From Escherichia coli (GTDB lineage: Bacteria > Pseudomonadota > Gammaproteobacteria > Enterobacterales > Enterobacteriaceae), in the NCBI RefSeq assembly GCF_003018235.1, contig NZ_CP027437.1: 64,000 bases of DNA; one strand, 5' to 3'. Numbering within the stretch: position 1 is the stretch's first letter; each line of letters opens with the position of its first letter. Below, in pieces: positions 21,218 through 52,249 of the stretch. The translations under genes and the position numbers were made by a program. The notes beneath the pieces are model-generated. The model ran no database searches and was not told the DNA's origin. It saw nothing but the letters and a program-made list of their open reading frames with translations.

Positions 21218-22120
21218 TTATTGATAAACAAAAGTCACGCCAATAATCGATTGCACATTCCCTGCAGTCACCTGCCCTCCGGTACGTGCGTAATTTGCCG
21301 TTAATCCCAGACTTACCGCCGAAGTCCCTACTGCTCCTAACGATACCGTGTTATTCGCTGGAATAATCGTACCGTTGCGCGTCAACTGTACGCCGACGCC
21401 CTGCGCTGGTGAAAACGACGCGGTATTGGTGAAAATCGAGTTGCCCGCATCTGCGGTTGTGCCGGAGAGGTAATACCCCAGGTTTTGGCTTTTCGCACAA
21501 TAAACGGTAAGAGGAATTGGCACTGAACCAGGGTAGTCCGGCAGAGTAACGGTGACATCACGAGCAGAAACATCACAGCCGCCAGTAGGCACCACCACAT
21601 CATTATTGGCGTAAATATTCCACACAAACTGGAAATCATCGCTGTTATAGTTGTTGGTCTGTCGCAAAATTAGCACGGCAATTAATGAGCCAGCTTTAAT
21701 CGCCACCCCGCCCGCACTGCTCACAGGCGTCAAATAAAGCGCCACCGGCCACGGCTTATCCGTTCTCGAATTATAAACAACCCGCGGCGTTTCGCTGGTG
21801 GTAGGAAATGGATAGCTACTGCCACTATATTTTACGGTCCCGGAAAAATTAGATAACACGCCGCCATAAGCCGAACCTCGTTGCAGTGTGACATAGTCTG
21901 TAATGGTTTCCGGGTAATCGTTATGGCAAAAGATTTGCGTCGAAAGATCCACGACCAGGTTTTGCCCCACATTCACGGCGGGCGCAAGGTTTACATAAAC
22001 ATTGGCGCTGCCACCGCCAATAGGGATAGCGGTGCCATTGGCGGTTTTACAGGCGAATGACCAGGCATTTACCGACCAGCCCATCAGCAGTACAGCAAAC
22101 AGGGTAATAACTCGTTTCAT
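21218..22120 (-). CDS. fimH: Type 1 fimbrial adhesin (mannose-binding)
   Basis: 300 aa from MKRVITLFAVLL. Characteristic FACKTANGTAIPIGGGSANVYVNLAP lectin domain. Confidence 0.95.
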   Translation of the reverse strand: MKRVITLFAVLLMGWSVNAWSFACKTANGTAIPIGGGSANVYVNLAPAVNVGQNLVVDLSTQIFCHNDYPETITDYVTLQRGSAYGGVLSNFSGTVKYSGSSYPFPTTSETPRVVYNSRTDKPWPVALYLTPVSSAGGVAIKAGSLIAVLILRQTNNYNSDDFQFVWNIYANNDVVVPTGGCDVSARDVTVTLPDYPGSVPIPLTVYCAKSQNLGYYLSGTTADAGNSIFTNTASFSPAQGVGVQLTRNGTIIPANNTVSLGAVGTSAVSLGLTANYARTGGQVTAGNVQSIIGVTFVYQ

Positions 22121-22139
22121 TACAATCATCTCTTCGGCT

Positions 22140-22643
22140 TCAGCTGTAGGTATAGGTGATGCTAATCACTGCCTGAATGGTTCCCTGAGTGGCTCCGCCA
22201 TTTACCGTCAATGCTCTGACCTGTAACGGGAAGTGCGCTGATTGTGAGGAATCATCCACCTGAACTGTTTTGGTTGCGCCAGTATTCAATGTGTTGCCAC
22301 TGTCATCCTGTAGCTCTAACTGGATGTTTTGCGCGGTCCCCTGGTTTTTATAATATCCGGTACTGTCGGCTGCCCCGCTGAAGCTGGCGGTGACCCTCGA
22401 CGTTCCCACCGGACAATTAGTCAACTCAAGCGCAACATCATGCCAGGCCGATGCCGCCCCGGCAGACATCAGACTGAAAGAATAAAGATCGCCGAGATCT
22501 ACCGTGGCATTGGTGGTGGAAACCGTGCACGGTTTGGCGACGACCTTACCGTTCACCGTGATGGTGACATCGGCTGCCTGTATCGTCGCACTTGCGAGCG
22601 CCAACATTGCCGCCAATAAATACCCACGTTTGCGCCATTTCAT
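22140..22643 (-). CDS. fimG: Type 1 fimbrial minor subunit
   Basis: 167 aa. Pilin fold with a C-terminal beta-strand motif. Synteny within the fim operon. Confidence 0.9.
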   Translation of the reverse strand: MKWRKRGYLLAAMLALASATIQAADVTITVNGKVVAKPCTVSTTNATVDLGDLYSFSLMSAGAASAWHDVALELTNCPVGTSRVTASFSGAADSTGYYKNQGTAQNIQLELQDDSGNTLNTGATKTVQVDDSSQSAHFPLQVRALTVNGGATQGTIQAVISITYTYS

Positions 22644-22655
22644 GAGCATCTCCAG

Positions 22656-23186
22656 TTACTGATATTCAAGAGTGAAGGTAGCCGTGGCATTGATATGCCC
22701 CGCAGTGACAGGCACCTGTGTCGCCATTAACCGGGCGTAAAAATTCAGCGTATTTGGTTTACCCAGCGTCAGGGTCGTCCACGAAATCGCGGACGATGGA
22801 GCATTAAGGGGTATTTGATTTTGCTGCTCATTCAGAAGCTGTATTCCCAGTCCCGCAGCCGCTGACACCGTATTTTCAAGTGCAAGCAGGTTGGCATTGT
22901 GGCTATCTGCAACGCCAGTAAACCCAACCTTTACGGCAGAAACGGCGTTACCACAGGGTGACAGCAAAATACGAAATGGAACGACAGGAGTCGTCGCGCC
23001 AATGTTGTTAAATTGCTTCGCCGCGTTTTCCATCAGATCAACAGTAAAATTGGTTGATTCAGCGGCCACACTACAGCCGTTATCTCTGACATAGCCGCGG
23101 ATAGTAATCGTGCTATCCGCAGCCAAAGCGCGACTTACCGCCAGCCACAAAAAAGCGCACAGAAGATAAAAAGGTTTGTTTCTCAT
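22656..23186 (-). CDS. fimF: Type 1 fimbrial minor subunit
   Basis: 176 aa. Synteny within the fim operon. Confidence 0.9.
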
Positions 23187-23195
23187 CACGCCCCC

Positions 23196-25832
23196 TTAAC
23201 GACATTCAGCTGATAGCTGGGTTAATAACTGCTGCTGACTCTCTGGTGGCAGTTGATAATTGGCGACACAGTGAGCATTTTCCTCTTCTCCCCATTTCAC
23301 CTGAACTTTTCCCGCTAAAGGCATTCCGCTGAGGTAAACCTGACCATTATCCGCAACAATGCCGCTACTCTGGCTACTCTCTGATGTCACCATCGCCCCA
23401 AACGGCAGCGGCTTATTATTGTGGGTTAGCGTCATGAGCAGTTTTATCCCAACGCGCGCTTTAAACTCTGCTCGCACTATCGCCCCACGAGTGGGAACAA
23501 CGTTAGCGACCGCGTTATCTAAATCGACGTTATCAGCCAGGGTATTGGTATCCAGCGCTACTCTGTTTTCCCGATATTCAGTGGCATAAGGCAGCACGGC
23601 ATAACCGCGCCAGTCGGTACGCACCCCCGTCTGGTTTTCGACTTTTGCATCTTTTGCGCCAGGCGCTTTAACAAGCACCACCGTATCGTTTAACGGCTGC
23701 CCCAGCGTTACGCCATTGGCATGAGCCAGTACCCCACCGCTGACTCCATAATAGAGCTGCTTAATATCATCGCTATGGCTGTAACCGATGTTGGCATTGC
23801 CGTAACCACCGCGATAATTCAGCGTGGCGTAGCCTGTGCTTCCGCTATTACCATCGCCTCCCCCGGCATAGCCGGTTTGCACGCTATAGCTGAGGTTGTT
23901 GTCTTCCAGCAACGTACCGTATACACCGGCCAGATTGGTCATCCGACCGTTGAGATCGTGTGACATGCTGTAGCTGGCACTGGCATGTCGCCACTGAGAT
24001 TTACTGTCAGAACGCAGCCAGTGGCTGAAAGGAATATTGACGTTAAGCGCTAACATCTGATCCCGTCCTTTTTGCCAGGCGTTTTTCGTCAGGCTATAGC
24101 TGAGCGTCCAGTTGATATCTTCGAATGCAGTATTTAAACCAGCCTGGAATTGCTCATCGACATTACTCGTTCCCCAATAAGTTTGATGGCTACCACTCAA
24201 ATACAGTGTTGATGTGCGCCCGAGTTGCTGAGTAACGGTGAGTTGTAATTTCCCGCGTTTGTTATAAGCGAGATTGTAATAGTCGGTGAATTTCGGCTTA
24301 ACCTGAATAACACCATCCTGTGTTTCGATGTTGTAGCCATTCATTCGACTGTATGTTGTATCAGCGAAATTAAAATACCCACTGGTCGAATAACGGTAAC
24401 CCACTAACTGAATATTCGTGCCTGATTCATTGAGCGATTTGTTATAGAGAAAACGCACCGATTGTCCGTCATGCTGACTGTCATCGGGAAGTGTGGAATT
24501 AGCCTGCGTCATATCCACAGACAGAGCGCCCAGTGCCCCCATGTTTTTCCCGATACCGAAATTAAAAGCACGATAACGATCCGCCAGTTGCGTTCCACCA
24601 TATATTGTCCAGCCAGCCGGAAGGCCGTGGAGTAATGTACTCTGGAAAAAGCGAGGTTTTTCCTGCTGCGCATTTCCACTACGGTATTCTCCTGCCGTAA
24701 TGGAATAACGAGTATGTCCTTCCCGTTGCAAAAGCGGGACTGACGAATAGGGTACGGTAAAGATCTGCGTGCTGCCGTCAGCCTCTTTAATCGTTACCTG
24801 CAAGTCACCACTATTACCTGCGGCATAGATATCGTTGATGGTAAAAGGCCCCGGTGGCACCGTACTATTATAAATGTCATACCCATTTTGTTTAATAGTG
24901 ACCTGTGCAGTACCACGAGCAATACCGTGGATCACCGGGGCAAATCCTCTTTGGCTATCGGGTAACATATTGTCATCTGAGGCCAATTGTGCGCCGCGAA
25001 AGTTAATACCATCGAAAATATCGCCCTGGGTATAACCATCACCCAGCGTCAGCCGGGAACGTAACGGAATTATGTCTCGCTCAAGCCAGGTATTGATATG
25101 CTGCCATTTATTTTTGCTACCTGATGAACTGTCGCTACTGTTATAACTCCAGGTGGTATTGTCGCGTAAACGCCACGCACCAATATTTAGCCCACTCTGT
25201 AGGTTTAAATATGCATAATGGCTGTTACTACCAATCCGATTCTGTACACTATTTCCGCTGAAATTATAATTGAGCAAGCCGGCATTAATACCGGGATCCC
25301 ACAACTCAGGAGGAATATATCCACGCGCGCGATTACTCATAAATGCCTGAGGGATCGTCAGGTTGAGTCGCTGCTGACCAACATCTAAATGCGCAGTAGC
25401 GTCATGGATCATTGAGGTTAATGGCACGCAGGCATCATCCGCCAGCAGATTCATACCGGAGACAGAAGCCGTATTCAGCCCCATACTGGCAAGTTGCGCG
25501 CGTGTCAGGCAGGGAACAATCCCTTGTTCACTGTCGCCCGTGTTAAATGTGACATCACGCGTTGCCATATAAGCATTATTCAAATAGATATCGACGCGAT
25601 ACGTCCCTGGCGGTAATTCTTGCCCATTTTCAAAACGCGATAAATCGGCCACAGCCTGGGGATCATCCGCTAAAAAGCGCGGATTAAAATAGAGTTCGGC
25701 AGATGACAAAGGTGCCTGTGCGGCAAAAGCACAGGCGACAAAGAGCCGGACAAAAAGACCAGCCAAACGATGCTTACGAACATGCAAGCATTGTGTGTTT
25801 CGCTGGTAAAGTCTTAAATTCAGATATGACAT
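23196..25832 (-). CDS. fimD: Outer membrane usher
   Basis: 878-aa usher family protein. Confidence 0.95.
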   Translation of the reverse strand: MSYLNLRLYQRNTQCLHVRKHRLAGLFVRLFVACAFAAQAPLSSAELYFNPRFLADDPQAVADLSRFENGQELPPGTYRVDIYLNNAYMATRDVTFNTGDSEQGIVPCLTRAQLASMGLNTASVSGMNLLADDACVPLTSMIHDATAHLDVGQQRLNLTIPQAFMSNRARGYIPPELWDPGINAGLLNYNFSGNSVQNRIGSNSHYAYLNLQSGLNIGAWRLRDNTTWSYNSSDSSSGSKNKWQHINTWLERDIIPLRSRLTLGDGYTQGDIFDGINFRGAQLASDDNMLPDSQRGFAPVIHGIARGTAQVTIKQNGYDIYNSTVPPGPFTINDIYAAGNSGDLQVTIKEADGSTQIFTVPYSSVPLLQREGHTRYSITAGEYRSGNAQQEKPRFFQSTLLHGLPAGWTIYGGTQLADRYRAFNFGIGKNMGALGALSVDMTQANSTLPDDSQHDGQSVRFLYNKSLNESGTNIQLVGYRYSTSGYFNFADTTYSRMNGYNIETQDGVIQVKPKFTDYYNLAYNKRGKLQLTVTQQLGRTSTLYLSGSHQTYWGTSNVDEQFQAGLNTAFEDINWTLSYSLTKNAWQKGRDQMLALNVNIPFSHWLRSDSKSQWRHASASYSMSHDLNGRMTNLAGVYGTLLEDNNLSYSVQTGYAGGGDGNSGSTGYATLNYRGGYGNANIGYSHSDDIKQLYYGVSGGVLAHANGVTLGQPLNDTVVLVKAPGAKDAKVENQTGVRTDWRGYAVLPYATEYRENRVALDTNTLADNVDLDNAVANVVPTRGAIVRAEFKARVGIKLLMTLTHNNKPLPFGAMVTSESSQSSGIVADNGQVYLSGMPLAGKVQVKWGEEENAHCVANYQLPPESQQQLLTQLSAECR

Positions 25833-25898
25833 TATTCCTCCGGTTTAAAATCACCCGGCAGTCAATTCTTTTTATTCAGGCGAAAAATTCCCCCTGCG

Positions 25899-26624
25899 TT
25901 ATTCCATTACGCCTGTCATTTTGGGGGTAAGTGCGCCATAATCATTTATTGTTCGGTAAGTAATATTGCTTCCTGCATCAGAAGGCAATTTAACCGTGCT
26001 TTCGCCCATTGGAGGCACCAATGCATTTTCAAGAACCCGGGTTCCGGCATTCAACTCTGTTACCGTCAGGTAATAGGGTGTCGGGTTAATCAGCGTCAGA
26101 GAATTCGCGCTACGACGAAATCTTAATTTTTCTGCGGCCTGATCGGGTGGCAACGCTAATTTAGCCGGGCGATAGTACAGTTTAATGCGGCTGATAATTG
26201 CGAGCTGTAGCGTATTCTCAGTCAATTTTGATTTATCCATTGACGGAATCGCTTTAACGTTCATCCAGAATAAACTTTCCCGATCCTGTGGCAATTGGTT
26301 ATTTGTTGCATCAAGAATACGCAAGGTATTCTCTTTTTTTCCCTTCATCGCAAACAGAGGAGGCGTCACGATAAAACGACCATCCTTTACACCATCGGCA
26401 TTTTCCACCCATGATTGAATTAAATAGGTGCTATTTTCATCATTATTTGTCACGGCAAGTTGCACTTGTTTTTGCCCTGCCGGATAAATTACGCGAGTCG
26501 CACCTAAGGCCACTCCCGCTTCAGCGCGTCCGGCAACCATCATTGCCATGAACATCAGGATACCTGCCAGCAAGCAGAATGTTATTTCCTGCGATTTCCT
26601 TACATTGACGTTTTTATTACTCAC
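25899..26624 (-). CDS. fimC: Periplasmic chaperone
   Basis: 241-aa PapD-like chaperone. Confidence 0.95.
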   Translation of the reverse strand: MSNKNVNVRKSQEITFCLLAGILMFMAMMVAGRAEAGVALGATRVIYPAGQKQVQLAVTNNDENSTYLIQSWVENADGVKDGRFIVTPPLFAMKGKKENTLRILDATNNQLPQDRESLFWMNVKAIPSMDKSKLTENTLQLAIISRIKLYYRPAKLALPPDQAAEKLRFRRSANSLTLINPTPYYLTVTELNAGTRVLENALVPPMGESTVKLPSDAGSNITYRTINDYGALTPKMTGVME

Positions 26625-26660
26625 TGTCCTGTTCCTGTTATCACATTATCTGCTGAACAA

Positions 26661-27200
26661 TTACTGATAGGTTAAAGAGAACCAGGCCTGGGCATTGGCG
26701 ATGCCGCCAGTAACCCGACGCCCGGTAGCACGATATTTGGCGATGAAATGTAGCGAAGTAGAGCCTGAGTAAAGCCGTTTCCAGTTTGCTGGAGGACGAT
26801 TAATCGGTACGAGGTTTCCTTCATCATCAAATAACGCTACGCCAATATTTGTGGCTATCCCTGGCCCCTCTCCCACGGAAAGCACATCCGGATTTTTACC
26901 ATCCGCGACACCGTGAAACGCCACACCCACACGTTCACTCACCACCGTGCTACATTCCCGTAAATGAATAACAAAAGGCACCGGTGCGCTATCTTCCCCT
27001 ACCGCATGAAACCGGTTACTGCTGATTTGCCCCATATTGACCGTCATTTGTTTATCACCAGCTTCAACTCGGCAAGTTTCCGCAATAATGACGCCCTGAA
27101 ATTGCATATTTCCGCCGGGCAGCGTGGTATTCCATTTATTTCCGGCCAGAGCAAACATTGGCAGCAACGACGCTAATAGAAATAATCTCTTCCTTTTCAT
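26661..27200 (-). CDS. fimI: Fimbrin-like protein FimI
   Basis: 179 aa from [13 protein letters not shown]. The reading frame stays open upstream to 27332, overlapping the fimA 3' end. Confidence 0.8.
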
Positions 27201-27264: not shown

Positions 27265-27813
27265 TTATTGATACTGAACCTTGAAGGTCGCATCCGCATT
27301 AGCTGCGCCAGGGGTTGCGGCACCGGTTGCAAAATAACGCGCCTGGAACGGAATGGTGTTGGTTCCGTTATTCAGGGTTGTTTCTGAACTAAATGTCGCA
27401 CCGTCCAGCGCCAGCGCAGCACCCGTTCTGTCCAGGATCTGCACACCAACGTTTGTTGCGCTACCCGCAGCTGAACTCTGCAGAGCCAGTACATCAGTAT
27501 GCGTAGCATCAATTGCCGTACCTAAGAAGGCAACAGCGGCTTTTGTGGCAACAGTGGTATCGCAATCATTCAGCTGAATGTTAAAACCAACGGCAGAGCT
27601 GGTTGCTCCAGCCTGCTTCAGGCTAGCGGTACGAACCTGCCCTAACTGAACGGTTTGATCAGCAGAGCCTGCATCAACTGCGCAAGCGGCGTTAACAACT
27701 TCCCCTTTAAAGTGAACGGTCCCACCATTTACCGTCGTAGTATCAGCCAGAGCCGCTGCGGAACTGAGGGACAGAGCCGACAGAACAACGATTGCCAGAG
27801 TTTTAATTTTCAT
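27265..27813 (-). CDS. fimA: Type 1 fimbrial major subunit
   Basis: 182 aa from [23 protein letters not shown]. Confidence 0.95.
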
Positions 27814-27932
27814 GCTGCTTTCCTTTAAAAAAACTATTTCTAAATCGACATGGGCAGTCGTTCTGTACACTTTGTTTTGTCAACGAGTTTGACTGCCAAC
27901 ACTGCACAGTTTTCCCCCAAAAGATGAAACAT

Positions 27933-28246
27933 TTGGGGCCATTTTGACTCATAGAGGAAAGCATCGCGCACAAACTTTTTCAGTTTATTTGTTGGCTTAA
28001 TATTCTATTGTTATCTTTATTTATAGATTTTTATATTGCATGAGGTGGTTTTTGGAGAGAAGAATGAGGAAGATGCGTCGAGCCACAGAAACGTTAGCTT
28101 TACATTTGGCGGAGGTGATGTGAAATTAATTTACAAGAGAAATAATTTACATATCAAACAGTTAGATGCTTTTTATCGTTTTTTAATATTTTTATGCTTG
28201 AGAAAAAATACGTAACTTATTTATGATATGGACAGTTTGGCCCCAA
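27933..28246. promoter_or_regulatory. fimS: fimS invertible phase switch (314 bp) flanked by 9-bp inverted repeats TTGGGGCCA; carries the fimA promoter
   Basis: TTGGGGCCA at 27933-27941 and its reverse complement TGGCCCCAA at 28238-28246, between fimE and fimA. Best sigma70-like promoter inside the element is TTGAGA-18bp-TATGAT on the plus strand at 28198-28227, pointing toward fimE. Confidence 0.85.
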
Positions 28247-28293
28247 TTGTCTTGTATTTATTTGTTTTTTAACTTTATTATCAATAAGTTAAA

Positions 28294-28890
28294 TCAAACC
28301 TCTTCTCTTTTTAATTTTTCGTTTATGAGATTATTTCTTTCCCATAATCCGGCAAAACGAGCAGCATTACTGGCGGTATAACGTACAGTATGGCGAATAT
28401 TTCGATGCCCGAGATAATCCTGAATTAAACGGGTATCAGCACCACGCTCCGCCAGTTCATAACCGCAAGCATGCCTTAACATATGAGGATGAGTCTGCGT
28501 TACGGTTCCAGCTTCAATACCGGCATCGCGAATAATGCGATAGGCCTGCTGGCGAGAAAGTCGACTCCCGCGGCGAGAAATAAATATGGCGTCGGTCCGG
28601 TCAGCGCCTTTCCAGTTAGCACGTTCCTGGGTCCAGCGTTCCACGGCTTCACGCTCATCAAAACGTAACGGGTGAACGGTAGAAAATCCGTTCTTCAGTC
28701 GGCGAATATTTATTCGACCTTCATTAAGGTCAAGATCCTGATAATGCAGATCAAGCAGTTCACTAATACGCATCCCATGCCGATATGCCAACAGAATAAG
28801 ACAATAATCTCTGGCTCCCGTTGCCCCGTAACAAACCGCCTGCATCATGGCCTGAACTTCTTTACCGGTAAGATAACGACGTTTACTCAC
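28294..28890 (-). CDS. fimE: Tyrosine recombinase FimE (fim switch ON-to-OFF)
   Basis: 198-aa ORF with a tyrosine recombinase C-terminal catalytic region (HPHMLRHACGYELAERG, LGHRNIRHTVRYT). Confidence 0.9.
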   Translation of the reverse strand: MSKRRYLTGKEVQAMMQAVCYGATGARDYCLILLAYRHGMRISELLDLHYQDLDLNEGRINIRRLKNGFSTVHPLRFDEREAVERWTQERANWKGADRTDAIFISRRGSRLSRQQAYRIIRDAGIEAGTVTQTHPHMLRHACGYELAERGADTRLIQDYLGHRNIRHTVRYTASNAARFAGLWERNNLINEKLKREEV

Positions 28891-29367: not shown

Positions 29368-29970
29368 CTATAAAACAGCGTGACGCTGTCGTCCTCTGGC
29401 TCTATCCCAGATGCCGTAAAAACGCCCTGCATTGCTGGCGGTATACCAGACAGTATGACGAATATTGCGATGCCCAAGATAATCCTGGATAAGTCGCGTA
29501 TCTATTCCCATATTCGCCAAAGCAAAACCACACGAATGGCGTAACATGTGCGGATGAATCTCCAGTGACAACCCGGCATTACCACCAGAAGTCGAGATAA
29601 TATGGTAAAACTGTTGCCGAGAAAGCGGATTCCCCTTACGTGATAAAAATACCCACTCGCTCTCAGCATGCGGATAAGAAGTACGGATACTCAACCAGTT
29701 TTTTAAAGCCTGAACTTCTTTGTTCAATAGCGGGTGCGTTGTTGAAAAGCCTTTTTTTAATCGATGGATATATATACACTTTGCCTTAAGATCAATATCC
29801 GAAATCCTCAATCGACAAATTTCACTCGCCCGGAAACCATGAATAAAACAAAGCAAAGTCAGACAATAATTACGTGCTGCATGAGGCCCGGTATTTGCTG
29901 CTTTAAGGAGTGATTCGATTTCACTATGGGTCAGGAAGTTCCTTTTTTTGTTATCAGCCTTATTCTTCAT
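29368..29970 (-). CDS. fimB: Tyrosine recombinase FimB (bidirectional fim switch)
   Basis: 200 aa from MKNKADNKKRNFLTHSEIESLL. Paralogue of FimE. Confidence 0.9.
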   Translation of the reverse strand: MKNKADNKKRNFLTHSEIESLLKAANTGPHAARNYCLTLLCFIHGFRASEICRLRISDIDLKAKCIYIHRLKKGFSTTHPLLNKEVQALKNWLSIRTSYPHAESEWVFLSRKGNPLSRQQFYHIISTSGGNAGLSLEIHPHMLRHSCGFALANMGIDTRLIQDYLGHRNIRHTVWYTASNAGRFYGIWDRARGRQRHAVL

Positions 29971-33329: not shown

Positions 33330-34310
33330 ATGAACGCAATAATATCGCCCGATTATTACTATGTTCTTACCGTTGCTGGTCAGTCTAATGCCATGGCGTA
33401 TGGCGAAGGACTGCCATTACCGGACAGGGAAGATGCGCCTCATCCCAGAATTAAACAATTAGCGAGATTTGCGCATACGCATCCCGGAGGCCCGTCATGT
33501 CACTTTAACGACATTATTCCACTGACTCACTGCCCACACGATGTTCAGGATATGCAGGGTTATCACCATCCTCTGGCAACGAATCATCAAACACAGTACG
33601 GCACCGTTGGCCAGGCACTGCATATTGCACGGAAATTACTGCCCTTTATTCCTGATAACGCAGGGGTTCTCATCGTTCCGTGTTGCCGTGGCGGATCGGC
33701 TTTTACCGCGGGCAGCGAAGGGAAATATTCAGAACGGCACGGAGCCAGCCATGATGCTTGTCGTTGGGGAACGGATACTCCGCTATACCAGGATTTAGTC
33801 AGCAGAACGCGAGCCGCACTGGCAAAAAATCCGCAGAACAAATTCCTCGGCGTATGCTGGATGCAAGGCGAATTTGACTTAATGACCAGTGACTACGCGT
33901 CACACCCTCAACACTTTAATCATATGGTTGAAGCCTTTCGTAGGGAGCTAAAACAATACCATTCTCAGCTTAATAATATTACTGACGCACCGTGGTTTTG
34001 CGGCGATACCACCTGGTACTGGAAAGAAAATTTCCCTCATGCGTATGAAGCTATTTATGGCAATTATCAAAATAATGTTTTAGCCAATATTATTTTCGTC
34101 GACTTCCAGCAACAAGGTGCAAGAGGACTGACGAACGCGCCTGATGAAGATCCAGACGATTTAAGCACGGGATATTACGGTTCAGCGTACCGGTCACCGG
34201 AGAACTGGACGACGGCACTGCGAAGCAGTCATTTCAGCGCGGCAGCCCGTCGGGGGATTATTTCTGACAGGTTTGTAGAAGCAATTTTGCAGTTTTGGCG
34301 CGAAAGGTGA
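33330..34310 (+). CDS. nanS: 9-O-acetyl-N-acetylneuraminate esterase
   Basis: 326 aa from MNAIISPDYYYVLTVAGQSNAMAYG (SGNH-like GQSN motif). Confidence 0.8.
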   Translation: MNAIISPDYYYVLTVAGQSNAMAYGEGLPLPDREDAPHPRIKQLARFAHTHPGGPSCHFNDIIPLTHCPHDVQDMQGYHHPLATNHQTQYGTVGQALHIARKLLPFIPDNAGVLIVPCCRGGSAFTAGSEGKYSERHGASHDACRWGTDTPLYQDLVSRTRAALAKNPQNKFLGVCWMQGEFDLMTSDYASHPQHFNHMVEAFRRELKQYHSQLNNITDAPWFCGDTTWYWKENFPHAYEAIYGNYQNNVLANIIFVDFQQQGARGLTNAPDEDPDDLSTGYYGSAYRSPENWTTALRSSHFSAAARRGIISDRFVEAILQFWRER

Positions 34311-34317
34311 GCGTTCA

Positions 34318-34518
34318 TTAATTTGATTTATTTGCATCCATTAGCGCTTTTAACTGCTCCGGCGTAAACGGTGGTTTGCGTCGGTGCAACATCGCATGGC
34401 AATTAGGGCACACAGGAAGCAAATCATTAACTGGATCCAGCTGGTAATCCTCTTTAATGGCTGAAAGCGGCACCAGGTGATGCACATTAAGCAATTTCAG
34501 AACCGCATGCTCATACAT
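34318..34518 (-). pseudogene. HNH-motif remnant ORF (66 aa), probably the C-terminal fragment of a degraded gene
   Basis: CPNCHAMLH HNH-like motif. Short ORF directly downstream of the 202-aa ORF on the same strand. Confidence 0.4.
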
Positions 34519-34577
34519 ATTTCCCCCTAAGTTTGCTCACTGCCTTTAATTTATGTCACAGGCAATGTAATTCACCT

Positions 34578-34649
34578 GAAGCTCATCTTGAATCTGTCCT
34601 TCTACTTAGTCATTACCCTACTGGCACAACCGACCTCAAGATGAGCTTC
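34578..34649. repeat. Perfect 14-bp inverted repeat GAAGCTCATCTTGA / TCAAGATGAGCTTC separated by 44 bp
   Basis: Direct reading of the sequence. Lies between the 202-aa ORF stop and the HNH remnant. Confidence 0.7.
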
Positions 34650-34655
34650 TTACTT

Positions 34656-35264
34656 TTAACGATGTATCAGAACAATCTTGCGCCGGGAGAATAGCGTTTC
34701 CGCAGACAGCTGGAATTTATATTCCGCGGCCTTCAGCTTTCGCGATTTAAGCATTTTCATCGTGATACCCCTTATTTTCCCTGACTCAACCTGTCTCTTG
34801 ATTTCGCCGGTGCTCAGCATGAGCTGCTTTTGCAAAATCGACAGCAGGCTGACCTGAAACGAACGGGAAATCCTGACGCTAACCTTGACCCATTTGCCGG
34901 GAGAAAGGCTGGCTAACCACTGCTCCTGAATGCGAAAATCAGGCCGACCCGATAGCTCTGCGTTGTTCCGCTTCAGCATCGCGATATCACAGGAAAAATG
35001 TTGAACCGTGGCTGCATCGTTGCTCATCAGCCGGTTATGAAGTTCGCGGTCAATTTTGCTGACGTGCAGGCGCGAAAATAGGGAGATATTCCAGGTGTAA
35101 TCACAGTGTGTGCATTTATAGATACTCCACACGTCCAGCACCTTCTTTTGCGAATTAATCCGAAATGCACCTGATGGCGTGAAGTCCCGTTTAATGTTGC
35201 ATGAAGGGCATCGCTTCGCAATGCGCTGATACCCCACGGGCGTGACGGTCCATGTAACTTTCAT
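34656..35264 (-). CDS. Hypothetical Cys-rich (zinc-finger-like) protein
   Basis: 202-aa ORF with CPSCN...CTHCDYTW motifs. No confident family assignment. Confidence 0.45.
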   Translation of the reverse strand: MKVTWTVTPVGYQRIAKRCPSCNIKRDFTPSGAFRINSQKKVLDVWSIYKCTHCDYTWNISLFSRLHVSKIDRELHNRLMSNDAATVQHFSCDIAMLKRNNAELSGRPDFRIQEQWLASLSPGKWVKVSVRISRSFQVSLLSILQKQLMLSTGEIKRQVESGKIRGITMKMLKSRKLKAAEYKFQLSAETLFSRRKIVLIHR

Positions 35265-35559
35265 AACCTACCTTTTTTAACCCATACAAAACCGGATCCG
35301 TACTGAACGGACCATGGATGTTTATGTATGAAAAATATTTAAGAGATATTTTTCAGAGGGTTAAAAAAAGATTTCCAACTATGCAATCCTGTCGGTGAGC
35401 AAAGAGATATAGCGAGACTATCAAAACGGCAATTATTGGGTATATGAGTTCAATCAATATTCATGATGGTTATGGCTTGTTCTATTGATCTGACACATTA
35501 AACACGGCGCATTAATTTTGTATGTTTTATGAACAACCCAACAACAAAAGGAGCGCGAT

Positions 35560-35811
35560 ATGACACAGCACGAACGGTTTTGTCAGGCCTGCGGAATGCC
35601 GATGTCCGCACCTGATGCGCAGGGGAGTAGCGATAAATACTGTGCATACTGCAGCGATAGCAACGGCAATCTTAAACCCTGGGAAGAGGCGGTATCAGGC
35701 TTGGCCAGCTTCCTTGATTCCTGGCAAAAAGTCGGTCCAGAAGAAGCACAGAAGCGTGCAAAACGTTATCTGACGGCAATGCCTGCCTGGGCTCATAAAG
35801 CGGACGAGTGA
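35560..35811 (+). CDS. Small zinc-ribbon protein (hypothetical)
   Basis: 83-aa ORF with CQACGMP...CAYCSD (CxxC-N-CxxC). Confidence 0.45.
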   Translation: MTQHERFCQACGMPMSAPDAQGSSDKYCAYCSDSNGNLKPWEEAVSGLASFLDSWQKVGPEEAQKRAKRYLTAMPAWAHKADE

Positions 35812-35875
35812 ATAACAAAGTCAGGGTGATTTAGGCAGTCTATCTTCACTCCGCTGATTCCATTAAGGAGAGCCG

Positions 35876-36268
35876 ATGTTTTCTCACATTATGCTTGGAA
35901 CCAACAACCTGCCACGCGCCATTGCATTCTACGATCCGTTGATGGATATGCTGGGGTATCCCCGCGGCGGCAGGAAGAGGAGATCGCATGGTGGGGCGTT
36001 TTCAACGGTAATAACACTACGGCACTGGGTATCAGTAGGCCATTTGATAAACAGGTTGCCACGACCCGAAATGGAGTGATGGTCGCCCTGATTGCGCGTT
36101 CTGCCGAACACATCCAGCAAGTTTCATGTGCTAGCTTTAAATCACGGTGGCACTGACGAGGGAGCACCTGGCCAGCGTCCGCATTACGGCGAAGGGTTCT
36201 ACAGCGCTTACGTCAGAGACACCGATGGCAACAAGCTGGCTTACGTTTATTACACCGCACAATCCTGA
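35876..36268 (+). pseudogene. VOC/glyoxalase-family gene disrupted by frameshifts
   Basis: The N-terminal part MFSHIMLGTNNLPRAIAFYDPLMDMLGYPR is in one frame. The middle (EEEIAWWGVFNGNNTTALGISRPFDKQVATTRNGVMVALIARSAEHIQQV) and C-terminal (HVLALNHGGTDEGAPGQRPHYGEGFYSAYVRDTDGNKLAYVYYTAQS) parts are recovered only by shifting frame. Confidence 0.6.
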
Positions 36269-36512
36269 GAACGATAAAGCGGGGGCCTCAGCGCCCCCAC
36301 CTGAAACTAAACCGATCCCGCAGATGTCAATGAGCGTTGAACGAGTTGATAAATGCCGAGATGTCTGACTGTTTTTACGCCAGAACTCCATGGTGTGACA
36401 ACCATACACATACTCCCTTCTTGACACCTTTAAACCATTTAACCGCATGCCTCTGTCTGCCCTGCAGGGACGGCTGATGCCTGTGTGTTGTCTGGCGGTA
36501 AGGAACAATACT

Positions 36513-36674
36513 ATGTACGCAAAATCCTTTATCGCTCTCGACGGGAATGGTCGTCTGACCGGTGCCCGTACTGCGCAGACCGCCCCTTACGATCGTTATA
36601 CCTGCCACCTCTGCGGTAGCGTGCTGCAATACCATCCTGAATACATCACCGAACGCCCGTGCTTTGAACAGTAA
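36513..36674 (+). CDS. Small hypothetical protein (53 aa)
   Basis: ATG preceded by AGGA. Contains CHLCGS. No family recognised. Confidence 0.3.
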   Translation: MYAKSFIALDGNGRLTGARTAQTAPYDRYTCHLCGSVLQYHPEYITERPCFEQ

Positions 36675-37266
36675 CCAACACACTGACAGAGGGCGGCGAA
36701 AATGCTTTATGCAAATCTTGATGCAAAGGCAGCCAGACGAATTCGTAAGTTACGCTTTTACGTGGCAGATACTCAAAGCAGACTGGCATTGTAGCGACGA
36801 TTGCCACGGTGAACGCTATTGTATGGCATGTAGTACCTGAGACTTCAGCCGCCCAGTAGATATAGCATCATGAAAAAACTGAAATGCTTTCTTGCCAACA
36901 ACTCACTGAGCTAGTATGCCTCCACCGATGTAACAATTAGAGCAAGCGTCAAAGTGCGAAACTGCCCTCACGTAGCTGCAAGTTAACACCAGGAAATCCT
37001 GGTTCAAACACGACCAGCTCTATGTTAGCGGCAAGCAATCGTTGAACTAAACGCATATGCAGCCGGAGATGAAAGTTAGGAAAAAAGCAGAGGCTGATAA
37101 GAATTATGCACGTTGAGCTGGGATCGTAATACCCCACTTAAAATGTACAAGGGGAGTAGTCTAATGATGTTAAATACGAACCTTCAGTATTGTTCATTCA
37201 CCAATTTTCCCATATTCTCTCATCATTAATATTCTCTGCCGAATTTTATAGGGCTAACTCGCTGAA

Positions 37267-37473
37267 ATGAATGACAAAGCTTTAACCTTGAAAGATGTGG
37301 TGGCTTACTTAAAGTTGGCAGAAAAAACAGCGTATAGGTTGACTAGCGAAGGCAAATTGCCGGGATTTAAGGTTGAAGGCTCATGACGCTTCAAACGAGA
37401 GGATTTAGATATGTGGATTGAAGGTCAGAAGACTCAAAGCTACCCGAGTATCACAAAATCCAATCGTGGTTGA
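37267..37473 (+). pseudogene. AlpA/excisionase-type helix-turn-helix regulator gene interrupted by an in-frame TGA
   Basis: MNDKALTLKDVVAYLKLAEKTAYRLTSEGKLPGFKVEGS-stop-RFKREDLDMWIEGQ. The stop at 37384-37386 sits where this family has a conserved Trp (TGG). Confidence 0.6.
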
Positions 37474-37666
37474 TCAAGTGGATAAACATGAAAAGTCGGT
37501 AGCCCTCAAAGGCCACTTGCCACATGCAGTGAAGCAAGCCGTTGTGCAAGCTCTACTGAAAGAAGGTGATATCGCCCGAACGTTGCTCAAGGATCCACAA
37601 GTTATGGCAAGTTATGTTGAGCTGATTTTCGACATGATGAAGCAGAATAAAAATATGAATATCTAA
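37418..37666 (+). CDS. Hypothetical small ORF (TTG start), overlapping the HTH remnant out of frame
   Basis: 82-aa ORF from the track. Non-ATG start and no recognisable motifs. Confidence 0.25.
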   Translation: MKVRRLKATRVSQNPIVVDQVDKHEKSVALKGHLPHAVKQAVVQALLKEGDIARTLLKDPQVMASYVELIFDMMKQNKNMNI

Positions 37667-37708
37667 AAGATTTTGGGCTATCTATTACGTTTTAAAATGA
37701 GATAAATA

Positions 37709-40246
37709 ATGATAAATGACCATGAAGAACTAGAACTTGCTAAAGCTCAGGCAAAAGAAATATGGAAGATCCTTGATTATGTTCGAGGAGCATCACCTAT
37801 ATCTAATTATCGCTCATTAGCGTATTCAATCTTCTTCGTACGCTATCTTCAATCCAATACAGGTCAGCATTTTGAGGCAGAAAGGTTCGACTCTTTTAAT
37901 GTCATCGCCCAGTATTCCTACGATCTTGTAAACTATGCCGTTCAACTTGGATTGATTCATAGCGACGTATCTAAATTCTTAATTTATTATTTAGAAAACA
38001 CACTCCGTTCATTTGTCAATATTGATGAGTCTTTTGTTCGTTATGCAATTAGAGATGGTCTACTCAATAAAACCCCTGCAATAGCGTCGCTTTCTTTATC
38101 AGAACTGGATTTACTTTTTGCCGAGAATGAAGGTAAGTCAGGAGGTGAGTTTTATACCCCTAGAGACGTCAACTTATTGGTTAAAATATTAGGATTGAGT
38201 TATCAACCAAAGTCAATATGTGACCCATTTGCAGGTGCTGGAAACACAGCATTTCCTTTTGCCAATACTGGTATTGAAAAAGTTAGGATTGATACTCAAG
38301 AAATTAATAGAGATGCTTACTTTAAACTAGTAATAAGTAGAGTCATCAGGAAAATAGAAGGTCGAGACTATTTCGGCGATTCCCTATCACAACCATTATA
38401 TCAAGAAAATAAATATGATCTGATAGTTTCTTTCCCACCTTTTGGCATGAAAATTCCTAAAGCCACTCGAAATAATATTTACTATAAAACAAGTAATAAG
38501 TGGCTGGATATTACTGAAATCTTGCCAGAAAGTAGAAGTGATTGGTTTATAACATTATCAATGCTTCCAGCCCTTTCTGAGGGGGGTAAGATACTAGTAG
38601 GTATGTCACTTGGGGCTTTGACAAGAGCAGGCTCTGAGGCAAAGGTTCGTGAGTATTTAGTCTCTCGCGGAATTATCGAACAAGTAATTCTTTTACCTAA
38701 AAATATTTATTACTCTACGGCTATCTCAACTGTACTTCTTGTCCTCAACTCAGGAACAAGTAACATAAATAACAGAAGTATTAAATTTGTAGATGCTTCA
38801 CTGTTTTACGAGCCTGCCCGTGGTCGAAACACCCTCACAACAAAAAATATAAATGAGATCGTAGAGGCTTGTCATAAAGATGGCCGATTTAGTATTAGTT
38901 CATCTCATACCCAAATAGCAAACAGAGACTTTAATTTAGATCCGTCTCTTTATGTACGTAAAGATCTCAAAATCAGTGAGGTTTCTTTAAAAAATTTTAG
39001 AGGATACTCTGACTTTAAAGTTTCGATACATCCTTCTTTAAATGTATTGGTTGGTGAGAACGGCGTCGGGAAAACTTCGATATTAGAAGCATTAGCATGT
39101 GGCCTTGGTCCTTTCCTTACTGCTATGCCTGATGCTAAAGGAAAACTGATAAAAAAATCAGATATCCATATAAGTTCAAAAGGAATCGCAAATTATGCTC
39201 GAATATCGATTGAAACAACATCAAGTTTAAGTTGGGATCTTGTGGCAAAGGGGGTTGATGTTTCCGAGCCCCCTAAGATAGGAACATCAGCATTAACTAG
39301 CTACGCTACTCATCTTGTAGATAGTCAGTCTGAATATCCACTCATTGCTTATTATGGGACTAACCGTGCTCTTACTTCTACCAGTTCTAAAGTTGCAATA
39401 AATCCATTCGAGAAAGAAAATCGTGGGGAAGGTTATGACTTTGCTTTAGATGCTAAAGTTAACTACGGCATCTTAAAGAACTGGTTTTCAAAAATAGAGG
39501 TTGATGAGCTTCGAAAACGTGATGAACTAAAAGACCATAAATTCATTCATCCGGCTAAGAGACTTGTTTCAGAGGCTGTTTACCAGATTGTTGATCGAGC
39601 TACATGCTTGGAGTTCGACAAAAATAGTAACGATGTTATGGTTCATTGGAAAAATGAGCAGGGAGAGTGCGTAAAGCTTACATTGGAACAACTAAGTGAA
39701 GGGTATAGAAATATGGTATCCCTGACCATTGACCTAGTGAGGCGTGCTTATTTACTTAATCCTACCAAACCGAAACCGCTAACAGTTAATGGGATCGTTT
39801 TAATTGATGAAATTGAACTTCACTTGCACCCTAGATGGCAGCAAAAGATTTTAAATGATCTTACTAAGCTGTTTAAGAATATTCAGTTTATTGTCACGAC
39901 ACATAGTCCTCAAGTCTTAACAACAATCAAAGCCGATTGTATCCGTATTGTTTCCGTCAATGCTAACGAAGCAAAATTAGTGACAGGAACTACTACTTAC
40001 GGTTCTGAAAGCTCAAGAATGTTGGAAGATGTTTTAGGTGGTAACAATCGCGCCCAACATCTTGATATTGTTAAAAAACTAAACCGTTATACAGAGTTAG
40101 TAGAGGCCGACAAATGGGATACCGATGAGGCATTAGAACTCAAAAAAGAGTTATATAAATGGGGTGGTCAGACAGAAGACGAGCTTCAAAAATTAGAAAC
40201 TGATATTCGAATTCGCGAGTTCGAGCGTGGCAATGAAAAAGATTAA
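37709..40246 (+). CDS. Fusion protein: N-terminal HsdM-like N6-adenine DNA methyltransferase domain plus C-terminal ABC/AAA_21-type ATPase domain (PtuA-like)
   Basis: 845-aa ORF. Methyltransferase motifs GGEFYTPRDV, ICDPFAGAGNTAF (motif I) and DLIVSFPPFG (motif IV region). ATPase motifs: Walker A VLVGENGVGKTS, signature-like LSEGYRNMVSL, Walker B VLIDEIELHLHP, H-loop FIVTTHSP. Confidence 0.75.
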   Translation: MINDHEELELAKAQAKEIWKILDYVRGASPISNYRSLAYSIFFVRYLQSNTGQHFEAERFDSFNVIAQYSYDLVNYAVQLGLIHSDVSKFLIYYLENTLRSFVNIDESFVRYAIRDGLLNKTPAIASLSLSELDLLFAENEGKSGGEFYTPRDVNLLVKILGLSYQPKSICDPFAGAGNTAFPFANTGIEKVRIDTQEINRDAYFKLVISRVIRKIEGRDYFGDSLSQPLYQENKYDLIVSFPPFGMKIPKATRNNIYYKTSNKWLDITEILPESRSDWFITLSMLPALSEGGKILVGMSLGALTRAGSEAKVREYLVSRGIIEQVILLPKNIYYSTAISTVLLVLNSGTSNINNRSIKFVDASLFYEPARGRNTLTTKNINEIVEACHKDGRFSISSSHTQIANRDFNLDPSLYVRKDLKISEVSLKNFRGYSDFKVSIHPSLNVLVGENGVGKTSILEALACGLGPFLTAMPDAKGKLIKKSDIHISSKGIANYARISIETTSSLSWDLVAKGVDVSEPPKIGTSALTSYATHLVDSQSEYPLIAYYGTNRALTSTSSKVAINPFEKENRGEGYDFALDAKVNYGILKNWFSKIEVDELRKRDELKDHKFIHPAKRLVSEAVYQIVDRATCLEFDKNSNDVMVHWKNEQGECVKLTLEQLSEGYRNMVSLTIDLVRRAYLLNPTKPKPLTVNGIVLIDEIELHLHPRWQQKILNDLTKLFKNIQFIVTTHSPQVLTTIKADCIRIVSVNANEAKLVTGTTTYGSESSRMLEDVLGGNNRAQHLDIVKKLNRYTELVEADKWDTDEALELKKELYKWGGQTEDELQKLETDIRIREFERGNEKD

Positions 40247-41021
40247 TAAGCTAGATGAGCCAAATCGGCTTGGTGTGTTCAAGGCTACTCATCCTAATGC
40301 TTTGTGGGAGAGGGATAAAAACTCAATTGAAGAGGCTTTCCGTTGTTGCATTGCCAGATATCAAGAAACTCTACAACAATTACGTACGGACCAAGGTAAT
40401 TTATGTGCATATTGTGAACAGGATTTAATGTCTGGAACTAATGGGGCATTAGATGACTGCCGTATTGAGCATTTTCATCCGAAATCTAAACGTGAACAGG
40501 GAGAACCTAATTGGGCTTTGGAATGGAGCAATTTGTTAGTTGTTTGCTGTGGCGGAAATCAAAGTAAAGTTGTTAATCCTGGGCAAAGATTTGATGCTGA
40601 TCCCAAAAATTACTCTTGCGATGTACCAAAGAGTGACAAAATTTTAGATACCATTATATTAAATCCACTTAATTTACCTGAATTAAATATCTGGAAGTTT
40701 CATCGTTCTTCGGGGCAAATTTCCGTAAATGAAGATTCCTGTTTAGAATTTGGTATAAGTGTTGAAATGGCACACCAAACAATTAAAGAATTGAATTTAA
40801 ATTCCCCTCGATTAATTAGATTTCGAAAGGCTATTCTAAATAATCTCAACATTTTAATAACAGAAAGGCTGAAGAAGGGACAAACGGTAGAGCAAGCTGT
40901 TAGATTTATTGCCATATCACTCTTTAGAAAAAATGGAGCAGGTGATTGGCCCTCTTTTTTTAGTGCAACACGATATTATTTAGGTCAGCAGGCTGAGCTT
41001 GTTTTAGCCCAACCTATTTAA
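40233..41021 (+). CDS. HNH endonuclease (PtuB/TIGR02646-like), translationally coupled to the upstream fusion gene
   Basis: 262 aa from MKKINKLDEP. HNH motifs CAYCE, CRIEHFHPKS, NLLVVCCGGN. Its start overlaps the 3' end of the upstream gene by 14 nt. Confidence 0.7.
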   Translation: MKKINKLDEPNRLGVFKATHPNALWERDKNSIEEAFRCCIARYQETLQQLRTDQGNLCAYCEQDLMSGTNGALDDCRIEHFHPKSKREQGEPNWALEWSNLLVVCCGGNQSKVVNPGQRFDADPKNYSCDVPKSDKILDTIILNPLNLPELNIWKFHRSSGQISVNEDSCLEFGISVEMAHQTIKELNLNSPRLIRFRKAILNNLNILITERLKKGQTVEQAVRFIAISLFRKNGAGDWPSFFSATRYYLGQQAELVLAQPI

Positions 41022-41040
41022 CATACTTTCAACTAGTTAG

Positions 41041-41063
41041 AGAGGCTGCTTTTGGCAGCCTCT
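41041..41063. terminator. Hairpin between convergent genes (AGAGGCTGC-TTTTG-GCAGCCTCT), likely bidirectional terminator
   Basis: Perfect 9-bp stem with a 5-nt loop in the 60-bp gap between the 3' ends of the convergent genes. Confidence 0.55.
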
Positions 41064-41081
41064 TGCAGAGTGCAGAATCGA

Positions 41082-43548: not shown

Positions 43549-43744
43549 TTTTATTTCTCAATATAGTGTTTATATTTACTACCGTGAGCCATCTTACCTA
43601 AGCGTAGAACGTGGCGGAAAACACGATAACATTATTGCATAGCTTACGGCGTAACTTATCCTCGCCCCAGACAGAATAAACGTCAAAATAAAATAATGAA
43701 AATATGATCGAGACAGCATTAGCTGCCCCGCTTTCTTAGACTTT

Positions 43745-44998: not shown

Positions 44999-45196
44999 GA
45001 TGAATATCCTTTCAAGGGTTCTGTGTGGGTACAAACATTATCGAACCGGGATATACCCGCAGTTGTACCCGCATCAGTAAGTTGATGTAGATTGAATCAG
45101 GTTGACTTAGGTTGAGTGAAAAAGCGAGGAAAGCCTTGCGGATACTGGATTTCAGGCATAAAAAAAGACCTCAGTTGAGGTCTATTTACATACTTA

Positions 45197-50734: not shown

Positions 50735-52249
<1,515 letters not shown>

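What the first reader, a model, noticed from the sequence alone, without database searches (positions are those of the whole stretch)
27933..28246. fim phase switch appears captured in the OFF orientation
The 314-bp element is intact with perfect 9-bp inverted repeats. The only good sigma70-like promoter inside it (TTGAGA-18bp-TATGAT at 28198-28227) is on the plus strand and fires outward across the fimE-proximal repeat, away from fimA, which is on the minus strand. That is the arrangement expected for phase-OFF cells, so the sequenced population would be largely non-fimbriate. The assignment depends on that hexamer being the true fimA promoter.
Basis: partly seen in the sequence, partly recalled or inferred. 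Interest (0 to 1): 0.5.

Follow-up and report, generated by a model that had tools for sequence, protein, structure and literature searches.

The report
E. coli fim switch, OFF orientation
This is the well-known invertible promoter switch (fimS) for type 1 fimbriae in E. coli, and it sits in the "OFF" orientation, the same as in the K-12 MG1655 reference genome and about 95% of complete E. coli genomes, so it is correct but ordinary.

Summary
Window 27933-28246 is an intact 314-bp fimS element with perfect 9-bp inverted repeats (TTGGGGCCA / TGGCCCCAA). It lies between fimE and fimA, which are both on the minus strand.

The OFF call also holds, and it does not depend on the promoter hexamers:
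1. The window is collinear with the MG1655 reference, with the UTI89 reference (published as OFF) and with an O157:H7 genome (16-bp deletion, published as locked OFF).
2. Two published PCR/restriction phase assays run in silico give the OFF patterns: BstUI 188+539 and HinfI 198+361. Flipping the element gives the ON patterns.
3. The published Fis-probe primers place the promoter-distal end of the element next to fimA.
4. The C-rich, G-poor stretch expected of the fimE Rho-dependent terminator lies on the fimE-sense strand, as expected for OFF.

The switch looks able to invert. FimB and FimE are 100% identical to the K-12 proteins. The same 514-bp allele occurs at 100% identity in the flipped orientation in another genome.

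Among 5,426 complete E. coli genomes, 4,451 share this orientation and 244 have the opposite one.

That the sequenced culture was mostly non-fimbriate is a reasonable inference, but one consensus sequence cannot test it. Already known; low interest.

The parts
27933..28246 (.). fimS invertible element, 314 bp, in the phase-OFF orientation
   Evidence: Length and ends. 308 of 314 positions identical to MG1655 fimS in the same orientation. Collinear with the UTI89 and O157 OFF references.
28238..28246 (.). IRL, the fimE-proximal 9-bp inverted repeat (TGGCCCCAA on the + strand)
27933..27941 (.). IRR, the fimA-proximal 9-bp inverted repeat (TTGGGGCCA on the + strand)
28198..28227 (+). Candidate PfimA: -35 TTGAGA (28198-28203), 18-bp spacer containing a SnaBI site, -10 TATGAT (22-27 of the last decade, 28222-28227). 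It fires toward IRL and fimE, away from fimA.
   Evidence: Best consensus match, 10 of 12. Hexamers invariant in MG1655, UTI89 and O157, and in the inverted copy in CP026085. The promoter end of the element is inferred from the Fis-probe primers. The transcription start site was not verified here.
28043..28082 (-). C-rich, G-poor 40-nt stretch (17 C, 2 G) on the fimE-sense strand. It is the rut-like part of the Rho-dependent terminator that truncates fimE mRNA only in phase OFF.
   Evidence: Composition: (10 C, 7 G at best if the element were flipped). A terminator active only in OFF: PMC2647292. The rut description comes from my own knowledge of Hinde et al. 2005.
28152..28164 (+). IHF consensus match TATCAAACAGTTA inside the element, at the expected position of IHF site II
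   Evidence: Pattern WATCAANNNNTTR. One IHF site inside fimS: PMC9993118.
28279..28291 (+). IHF consensus match TATCAATAAGTTA just outside IRL, at the expected position of IHF site I
   Evidence: 'IHF-1 site is adjacent to IRL': PMC9993118.
27965..27968 (.). Unique BstUI site (CGCG). Its position near the fimA end is diagnostic of OFF.
   Evidence: Assay described in PMC9993118.
27946..27950 (.). HinfI site (GACTC), 14 bp inside the fimA-proximal end. Its position is diagnostic of OFF.
   Evidence: Assays described in PMC4349694 and PMC6765310.
28294..28890 (-). fimE, the ON-to-OFF tyrosine recombinase. Intact, and the protein is 100% identical to K-12 FimE.
29368..29970 (-). fimB, the bidirectional tyrosine recombinase. 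Intact, and the protein is 100% identical to K-12 FimB.
27265..27813 (-). fimA, the major fimbrial subunit. Intact, with 11 amino-acid differences from K-12 (an ordinary allelic variant). It is disconnected from its promoter in this orientation.
21218..27200 (-). fimI, fimC, fimD, fimF, fimG and fimH, all present as uninterrupted ORFs
   Evidence: Gene order as annotated in GF60.

Best explanation
This is the canonical E. coli type 1 fimbrial phase switch, fimS, sequenced in its phase-OFF orientation.

The 314-bp segment is inverted by the tyrosine recombinases FimB (both directions) and FimE (ON to OFF, dominant). They cut within the 9-bp inverted repeats, helped by IHF, Lrp and other nucleoid proteins. 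As sequenced, the fimA promoter sits at the fimE-proximal end and points away from fimA. The fimAICDFGH operon therefore has no promoter, and cells carrying this arrangement make no type 1 fimbriae. In the same orientation, the C-rich rut-like region lies on the fimE-sense strand, so fimE read-through mRNA is terminated by Rho and FimE output is lowered.

Shown here: the identity of the element, its integrity, its orientation, intact recombinase genes, and the same allele in both orientations in other genomes. Inferred: that the hexamers are the working promoter, and that most cells of the sequenced culture were OFF. The switch is not locked; the assembly records the majority state of a reversible switch.
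For: - Anatomy: a 314-bp element with perfect 9-bp repeats between fimE and fimA.
- Homology: 308 of 314 positions identical to MG1655 fimS, with identical sequence around both repeats.
- Orientation, line 1: collinear with MG1655, with the UTI89 reference (stated OFF in PMC6458436) and with O157:H7 PA8, which carries the 16-bp deletion that locks OFF (PMC6765310).
- Orientation, line 2: in-silico BstUI assay gives 188+539, against the published OFF pattern of 187+539 and ON pattern of 433+293. The in-silico HinfI assay gives 198+361, against published OFF values of 359 or 202/357 and ON values of 489 or 74/485. The flipped element gives the ON patterns.
- Orientation, line 3: the Fis-probe primers BSFORBIO and BSREVBIO converge across the fimA-proximal repeat, and that end is described as the promoter-distal end.
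- Orientation, line 4: the 40-nt stretch with 17 C and 2 G is on the fimE-sense strand, and the Rho-dependent terminator acts on fimE mRNA only in OFF (PMC2647292).
- Able to invert: FimB and FimE are 100% identical to the K-12 proteins. There is no 16-bp deletion. The identical 514-bp allele is found unflipped in GF60 (H1) and flipped in VCSW7 (H41), both at 100% identity.
- Typical state: 4,451 genomes share this orientation and 244 have the opposite. Shaking overnight cultures are primarily OFF (PMC4349694). FimE's ON-to-OFF activity is dominant (PMC2647292).
Against: - No paper in the held library gave the mapped fimA transcription start site or its hexamers in text. That TTGAGA/TATGAT is PfimA rests on position, on conservation and on my recollection of Olsen & Klemm 1994.
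- A weaker promoter-like match (9 of 12) on the minus strand at 28157-28128 points toward fimA. Sequence alone does not exclude low-level transcription in OFF, although published lacZ-fusion phenotypes argue against it.
- A single consensus sequence says nothing quantitative about the ON:OFF ratio in the sequenced culture.
- Six SNPs relative to MG1655 lie inside the element. Their effect on Lrp, IHF, H-NS or Fis binding was not tested.
Confidence: 0.96

Rival explanations
1. The element is actually phase ON. The true fimA promoter would be a different, minus-strand site inside or downstream of the element, and the plus-strand hexamers would be a coincidental match in AT-rich DNA.
For: The consensus scan is not above chance: 3 sites against 2.1 +/- 1.2 in shuffles. 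One 9-of-12 site (28157-28128, minus strand) does point toward fimA. The transcription start site was not read from any paper.
Against: Two published, experimentally calibrated restriction assays give the OFF fragment sizes for this arrangement and the ON sizes for the flipped one. The window is collinear with the UTI89 reference, which is stated to be OFF, and with the locked-OFF O157 switch. The orientation of the rut-like stretch fits OFF.
Confidence: 0.01
2. The switch is permanently locked OFF in this strain, as it is in O157:H7, rather than caught in one state of a working switch.
For: It is in the same orientation as the locked O157 switch. Six SNPs relative to MG1655 lie inside the element, and one A is missing from the A-run between fimE and IRL.
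Against: The element is the full 314 bp with no 16-bp deletion. The repeats and their flanks are identical to K-12, and FimB and FimE are 100% identical to the K-12 proteins. Exactly the same 514-bp allele occurs at 100% identity in the flipped orientation in strain VCSW7, so this allele does invert in nature (H41). Trans factors encoded outside the window (IHF, Lrp) could not be checked.
Confidence: 0.03
3. The orientation is real on the molecule, but it says little about phenotype. The culture may have been a substantial ON/OFF mixture, and the assembler simply reported the majority path or an arbitrarily chosen one.
For: fimS is mixed in most cultures (PMC6458436; PMC6765310 reports about 50% ON under inducing conditions). 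An assembly collapses this mixture to one orientation. 244 complete genomes were deposited as ON, which shows that culture history decides the outcome.
Against: Standard shaking broth cultures are primarily OFF (PMC4349694) and FimE biases strongly toward OFF (PMC2647292). A majority-OFF population is therefore the default expectation. No read data are available to show otherwise.
Confidence: 0.15

Closest known systems
E. coli K-12 MG1655 fimS (NC_000913.3, between fimE b4313 and fimA b4314), as deposited
   Same: 314 bp, the same 9-bp repeats, the same orientation, identical flanks around both repeats, 308 of 314 positions identical, and identical FimB and FimE proteins.
   Different: Six SNPs inside the element (window 27969, 28029, 28106, 28108, 28137, 28175). 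One fewer A in the A-run between fimE and IRL. TTGACA instead of TTTACA between IRR and fimA. The fimA allele differs by 11 amino acids.
UTI89 reference fimS (NC_007946.1), documented as OFF in PMC6458436
   Same: Collinear over the whole fimE-fimA interval, with the same repeats and promoter hexamers.
   Different: Scattered SNPs. UTI89 also carries the unlinked recombinase FimX elsewhere in its genome; the window cannot show whether this strain has one.
O157:H7 fimS with the 16-bp deletion (locked OFF)
   Same: Same orientation, repeats and promoter hexamers.
   Different: The O157 element is 298 bp because of a 16-bp deletion next to the promoter, which locks it OFF (PMC6765310). The window element is a full-length 314 bp.
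Other Fim-recombinase invertons (hyxS, ipuS) and promoter invertons in general
   Same: The same logic: a promoter on a short segment flanked by short inverted repeats and flipped by a tyrosine recombinase (PMC6458436, PMC6083910).
   Different: Those are distinct loci with different repeats and target genes. The element here is fimS itself, not an analogue.

Membership tests
fimS, the type 1 fimbrial phase switch of E. coli | A segment of about 314 bp bounded by perfect 9-bp inverted repeats TTGGGGCCA / TGGCCCCAA | tested here: met
   27933-28246, exactly 314 bp, with exact repeats
fimS, the type 1 fimbrial phase switch of E. coli | Located between fimE and fimA, upstream of fimAICDFGH, with fimB and fimE adjacent | tested here: met
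   ORFs and the annotation of matching genomes; FimB and FimE 100% identical to the K-12 proteins
fimS, the type 1 fimbrial phase switch of E. coli | Sequence homology to reference fimS | tested here: met
   308 of 314 positions identical to MG1655; full-length matches at 96-100% identity in 4,451 genomes
fimS, the type 1 fimbrial phase switch of E. coli | Carries the fimA promoter near one end | tested here: inconclusive
   The best sigma-70 match, TTGAGA-18-TATGAT, lies 11 bp from IRL and is conserved in all references. Published primers label the opposite end as promoter-distal. The transcription start site itself was not verified.
fimS, the type 1 fimbrial phase switch of E. coli | IHF sites: one adjacent to IRL and outside the element, one inside it | tested here: met
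   WATCAANNNNTTR matches at 28279-28291 (outside) and 28152-28164 (inside), as described in PMC9993118. This is a consensus match only; binding was not tested.
fimS, the type 1 fimbrial phase switch of E. coli | Actually inverts, that is, it is found in both orientations | tested here: met
   The identical 514-bp allele occurs unflipped (GF60, H1) and flipped (VCSW7, H41), both at 100% identity. Across all genomes, 4,451 have this orientation and 244 the opposite. Inversion in this particular strain cannot be tested without reads.
Phase-OFF state of fimS | BstUI phase assay (OL4/OL20): OFF gives 539+187, ON gives 433+293 | tested here: met
   In silico: 188+539 as sequenced and 434+293 when flipped; assay from PMC9993118
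Phase-OFF state of fimS | HinfI phase assay (Phase_L/Phase_R, 559 bp): OFF gives about 359+200, ON gives about 489+70 | tested here: met
   In silico: 198+361 as sequenced and 481+78 when flipped; assays from PMC4349694 and PMC6765310
Phase-OFF state of fimS | Same arrangement as references shown experimentally to be OFF | tested here: met
   Collinear with the UTI89 reference (OFF per PMC6458436) and with locked-OFF O157:H7
Phase-OFF state of fimS | Non-fimbriate phenotype and no fimA transcription | not testable with these tools
   Needs agglutination, anti-FimA or RNA data from the sequenced culture

The most novel reading that the evidence does not exclude
The OFF-state arrangement might do more than disconnect fimA. 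The promoter fires outward across IRL, and its transcript would run antisense into the 3' end of fimE, whose stop codon lies 48 bp beyond IRL. That transcript could add to the Rho-terminator mechanism in lowering FimE in OFF cells. Alternatively, this strain's six fimS SNPs might shift the switching bias. Nothing in the sequence supports either idea specifically. The one orientation-specific inverted repeat I found (28213-28228 / 28276-28291) does not fold better than shuffled sequence (z = -0.55).
Probability: 0.05. Interest if true: 0.3.

Novelty: already known. Interest (0 to 1): 0.07.

Why it matters
It matters little beyond correct annotation. fimS is the textbook promoter inversion switch, and OFF is the orientation in the MG1655 and UTI89 reference genomes and in about 95% of complete E. 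coli assemblies.

Two practical points follow:
- Anyone mapping RNA-seq or transcription-start data to this sequence should expect fimA-promoter reads to appear antisense to the end of fimE.
- The orientation in an assembly reflects how the culture was grown, not a heritable property of the strain.

Because the switch and both recombinases are intact, the strain should be able to make type 1 fimbriae under inducing conditions.

Tried and rejected
1. I looked for the mapped fimA transcription start site or its hexamers in text and did not find them. I searched for papers containing TTGAGA/TATGAT together with fimA and for papers citing Olsen & Klemm 1994, and checked reviews and fimS papers. 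Hinde et al. 2005 (PMC1317003) and Thomason et al. 2015 (PMC4288677) are not held. The promoter identity therefore rests on indirect evidence.
2. The consensus promoter scan is not statistical evidence. It found 3 sites against 2.1 +/- 1.2 expected.
3. The 9-mer repeat is not statistical evidence either. It is not significant on its own.
4. I tested an orientation-specific inverted repeat, 28213-28228 / 28276-28291 (14 of 16), as a possible RNA hairpin at the fimE 3' end. The fold gave -11.4 kcal/mol and z = -0.55, no better than shuffles, so I rejected it as chance in AT-rich DNA.
5. I looked for a promoter between IRR and fimA. The window has a perfect TTGACA where MG1655 has TTTACA, but there is no -10 partner and the scan found no site there.
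6. I considered the locked-OFF idea and rejected it.
7. I did not run a cross-species scan of genome contigs for fimS-like elements. Its cost was not justified for an element already identified.

Full report
**What is there.** On the minus strand the window carries the standard E. coli type 1 fimbrial locus. The genes are fimB (29368-29970), fimE (28294-28890), a non-coding gap, fimA (27265-27813), then fimI, fimC, fimD, fimF, fimG and fimH down to 21218, all as uninterrupted ORFs. The flanking genes are uxuAB/gntP on one side and nanCMS on the other, as annotated in matching genomes. Within the fimE-fimA gap, 27933-28246 is exactly 314 bp. It begins with TTGGGGCCA and ends with the exact reverse complement TGGCCCCAA. 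The repeat finder extends the arms imperfectly to 22 nt.

**Is it more than chance?** Not on the simple statistics. A 9-mer seen twice in 64 kb occurs in 9 of 100 shuffles. The promoter-like count in this AT-rich kilobase is 3, against 2.1 +/- 1.2 in shuffles. Homology is what makes the feature real. The 514-bp query (element plus 100 bp on each side) matches full-length in 4,451 of 5,426 complete E. coli genomes. The element is identical to MG1655 fimS at 308 of 314 positions, with identical sequence around both repeats.

**The promoter.** TTGAGA-18-TATGAT at 28198-28227 on the + strand is the best sigma-70 match, at 10 of 12. It is not the only one. Two 9-of-12 matches also exist, one of them on the minus strand at 28157-28128 and pointing toward fimA.

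1. *Reference genomes.* In gene direction (fimE to fimA), the window is collinear across the whole interval with three genomes:
   - MG1655 (NC_000913.3).
   - The UTI89 reference. [quoted passage not shown]
   - O157:H7 strain PA8. [quoted passage not shown]

   An assembly labelled DH5alpha (CP026085) has the element reversed, with the hexamers pointing at fimA.

2. *Published phase assays run in silico*:

   | Assay | As sequenced | Element flipped | Published OFF | Published ON |
   |---|---|---|---|---|
   | OL4/OL20 + BstUI (PMC9993118) | 188+539 | 434+293 | 539+187 | 433+293 |
   | Phase_L/Phase_R + HinfI (PMC4349694; PMC6765310) | 198+361 | 481+78 | 359, or 202/357 | 489, or 74/485 |

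   For the BstUI assay both primers match with 0 mismatches.

3. *Fis-probe primers.* The primers BSFORBIO and BSREVBIO converge in the window across the fimA-proximal repeat, at 28048-28029 on the minus strand and 27914-27934 on the plus strand. [quoted passage not shown] The promoter-distal end is therefore next to fimA here, and the promoter end is next to fimE.

[quoted passage not shown] The central 40 nt at 28043-28082 read 17 C and 2 G on the fimE-sense strand as sequenced. If the element were flipped, the best stretch would be 10 C and 7 G. This fits a rut-type C-rich, G-poor site engaged in OFF. The rut description itself is my recollection of Hinde et al. 2005, which is not held in the library.

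All four lines agree: the window is phase OFF.

**Is the switch functional or locked?**
- FimB and FimE are 100% identical in protein sequence to K-12.
- The element is full length, with no O157-type deletion.
- IHF consensus matches sit where IHF-I (28279-28291, just outside IRL) and IHF-II (28152-28164, inside) are described.
- The very same 514-bp allele occurs at 100% identity and coverage in both orientations in other genomes: unflipped in GF60 (H1) and flipped in VCSW7 (H41).

This allele therefore inverts in nature, and 'captured in one state of a working switch' is the right description. The effect of the six SNPs relative to MG1655 on regulator binding was not tested.

**How unusual is OFF in an assembly?** It is not unusual. 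With the as-sequenced query, 4,451 genomes give a full-length match. With the flipped query, 244 do. That is 94.8% OFF and 5.2% ON among the 4,695 genomes that can be oriented. This fits the biology: FimE's ON-to-OFF activity is dominant (PMC2647292), and shaking overnight cultures are 'primarily phase fimOFF' (PMC4349694). A consensus sequence cannot quantify the ON:OFF ratio, and no reads are available.

**Mechanism.** The following is established knowledge, applied to this sequence.
- FimB or FimE binds half-sites flanking each 9-bp repeat, with IHF and Lrp bending the DNA, and exchanges strands within the repeats to invert the 314 bp.
- As sequenced, the promoter at the fimE-proximal end fires across IRL, away from fimA, so fimAICDFGH has no promoter.
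- The fimE read-through transcript meets the Rho-dependent terminator inside the element, which lowers FimE output.
- A FimB-mediated flip would bring the promoter to about 11 bp inside IRR. That would give a fimA leader of roughly 130 nt.

Shown here are identity, integrity, orientation and evidence that the allele can invert. Inferred are promoter function and the state of the population.

**Verdict.** Both the observation and the interpretation are right. This is a textbook element in its commonest recorded state, so novelty is nil and interest is low.

**Side observations.** Beyond nanS the window departs from most genomes. An island of about 11 kb lies between nanS and tRNA-Leu(CAA) leuX (45197-45281), bounded by a P4-type integrase. 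It encodes an 845-aa protein that fuses an HsdM-like methyltransferase domain to a PtuA-type ATPase, followed by a PtuB-type HNH protein. No reverse transcriptase ORF lies upstream. Only 2 of 5,426 complete genomes carry at least 80% of this island.

Noticed in passing
window 34300-45300: A strain-variable island of about 11 kb lies between nanS and tRNA-Leu(CAA) leuX (45197-45281, minus strand), bounded by a P4-type integrase (43745-45034, minus strand). Only 2 of 5,426 complete E. coli genomes hold at least 80% of it: PapM-32-1 from a baboon and CFSAN018748 from swine. leuX itself is relevant to fim, because FimB expression is reported to depend on this tRNA (Ritter et al. 1997, cited).
   Followed up: partly
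window 37709-41021 (+): A Septu-like defence gene pair with an unusual fusion. The 845-aa ORF has an N-terminal HsdM-like type I methyltransferase domain (residues about 136-429) joined to a PtuA-type AAA ATPase (residues 420-843; PADLOC 4.7e-106). A PtuB-type HNH protein follows (PADLOC 1.9e-100). RefSeq annotates them as 'N-6 DNA methylase' and 'retron system putative HNH endonuclease'. No reverse transcriptase ORF is seen upstream.
   Followed up: partly
window 41082-43548 (-): Two island ORFs (477 aa and 353 aa) have no NCBIfam or PADLOC match. In PapM-32-1 the second is annotated as 'nucleoid-associated protein' and the first as hypothetical.
   Followed up: no
window 28213-28228 and 28276-28291: A 14-of-16 inverted repeat joins the -10 region inside fimS to the IHF-I-like site outside IRL, and the two arms are brought together only in the OFF orientation. 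As RNA on the fimE-sense strand it folds no better than shuffled sequence (z = -0.55), so it is probably chance in AT-rich DNA.
   Followed up: yes
window 27866-27871 (minus strand; between IRR and fimA): The window, UTI89 and O157 read TTGACA, a perfect -35 hexamer, where MG1655 reads TTTACA. No matching -10 follows, and the scan reports no promoter there.
   Followed up: partly
L002 (CP026085 'DH5alpha'), locus 1504-1530: This ON-oriented assembly has a 3-bp shortening just inside IRL (TTGGGGCCATTGTCCATAGAGG, where TTGGGGCCATTTTGACTCATAGAGG is expected). Its 4.83-Mb chromosome is larger than expected for a K-12 derivative.
   Followed up: no
window 51296-51490 (-): An Rfam gathering-level match to Ysr276 (Yersinia antisense sRNA family, 185.8 bits) lies within the 503-aa ORF at 50738-52249, which I take to be pepA.
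   Followed up: no
E. coli genomes census: 707 of 5,426 complete genomes have no match to the fimS region at all. A further 24 match only partially in either orientation, presumably because of deletions or insertions in the fim regulatory region.
   Followed up: no
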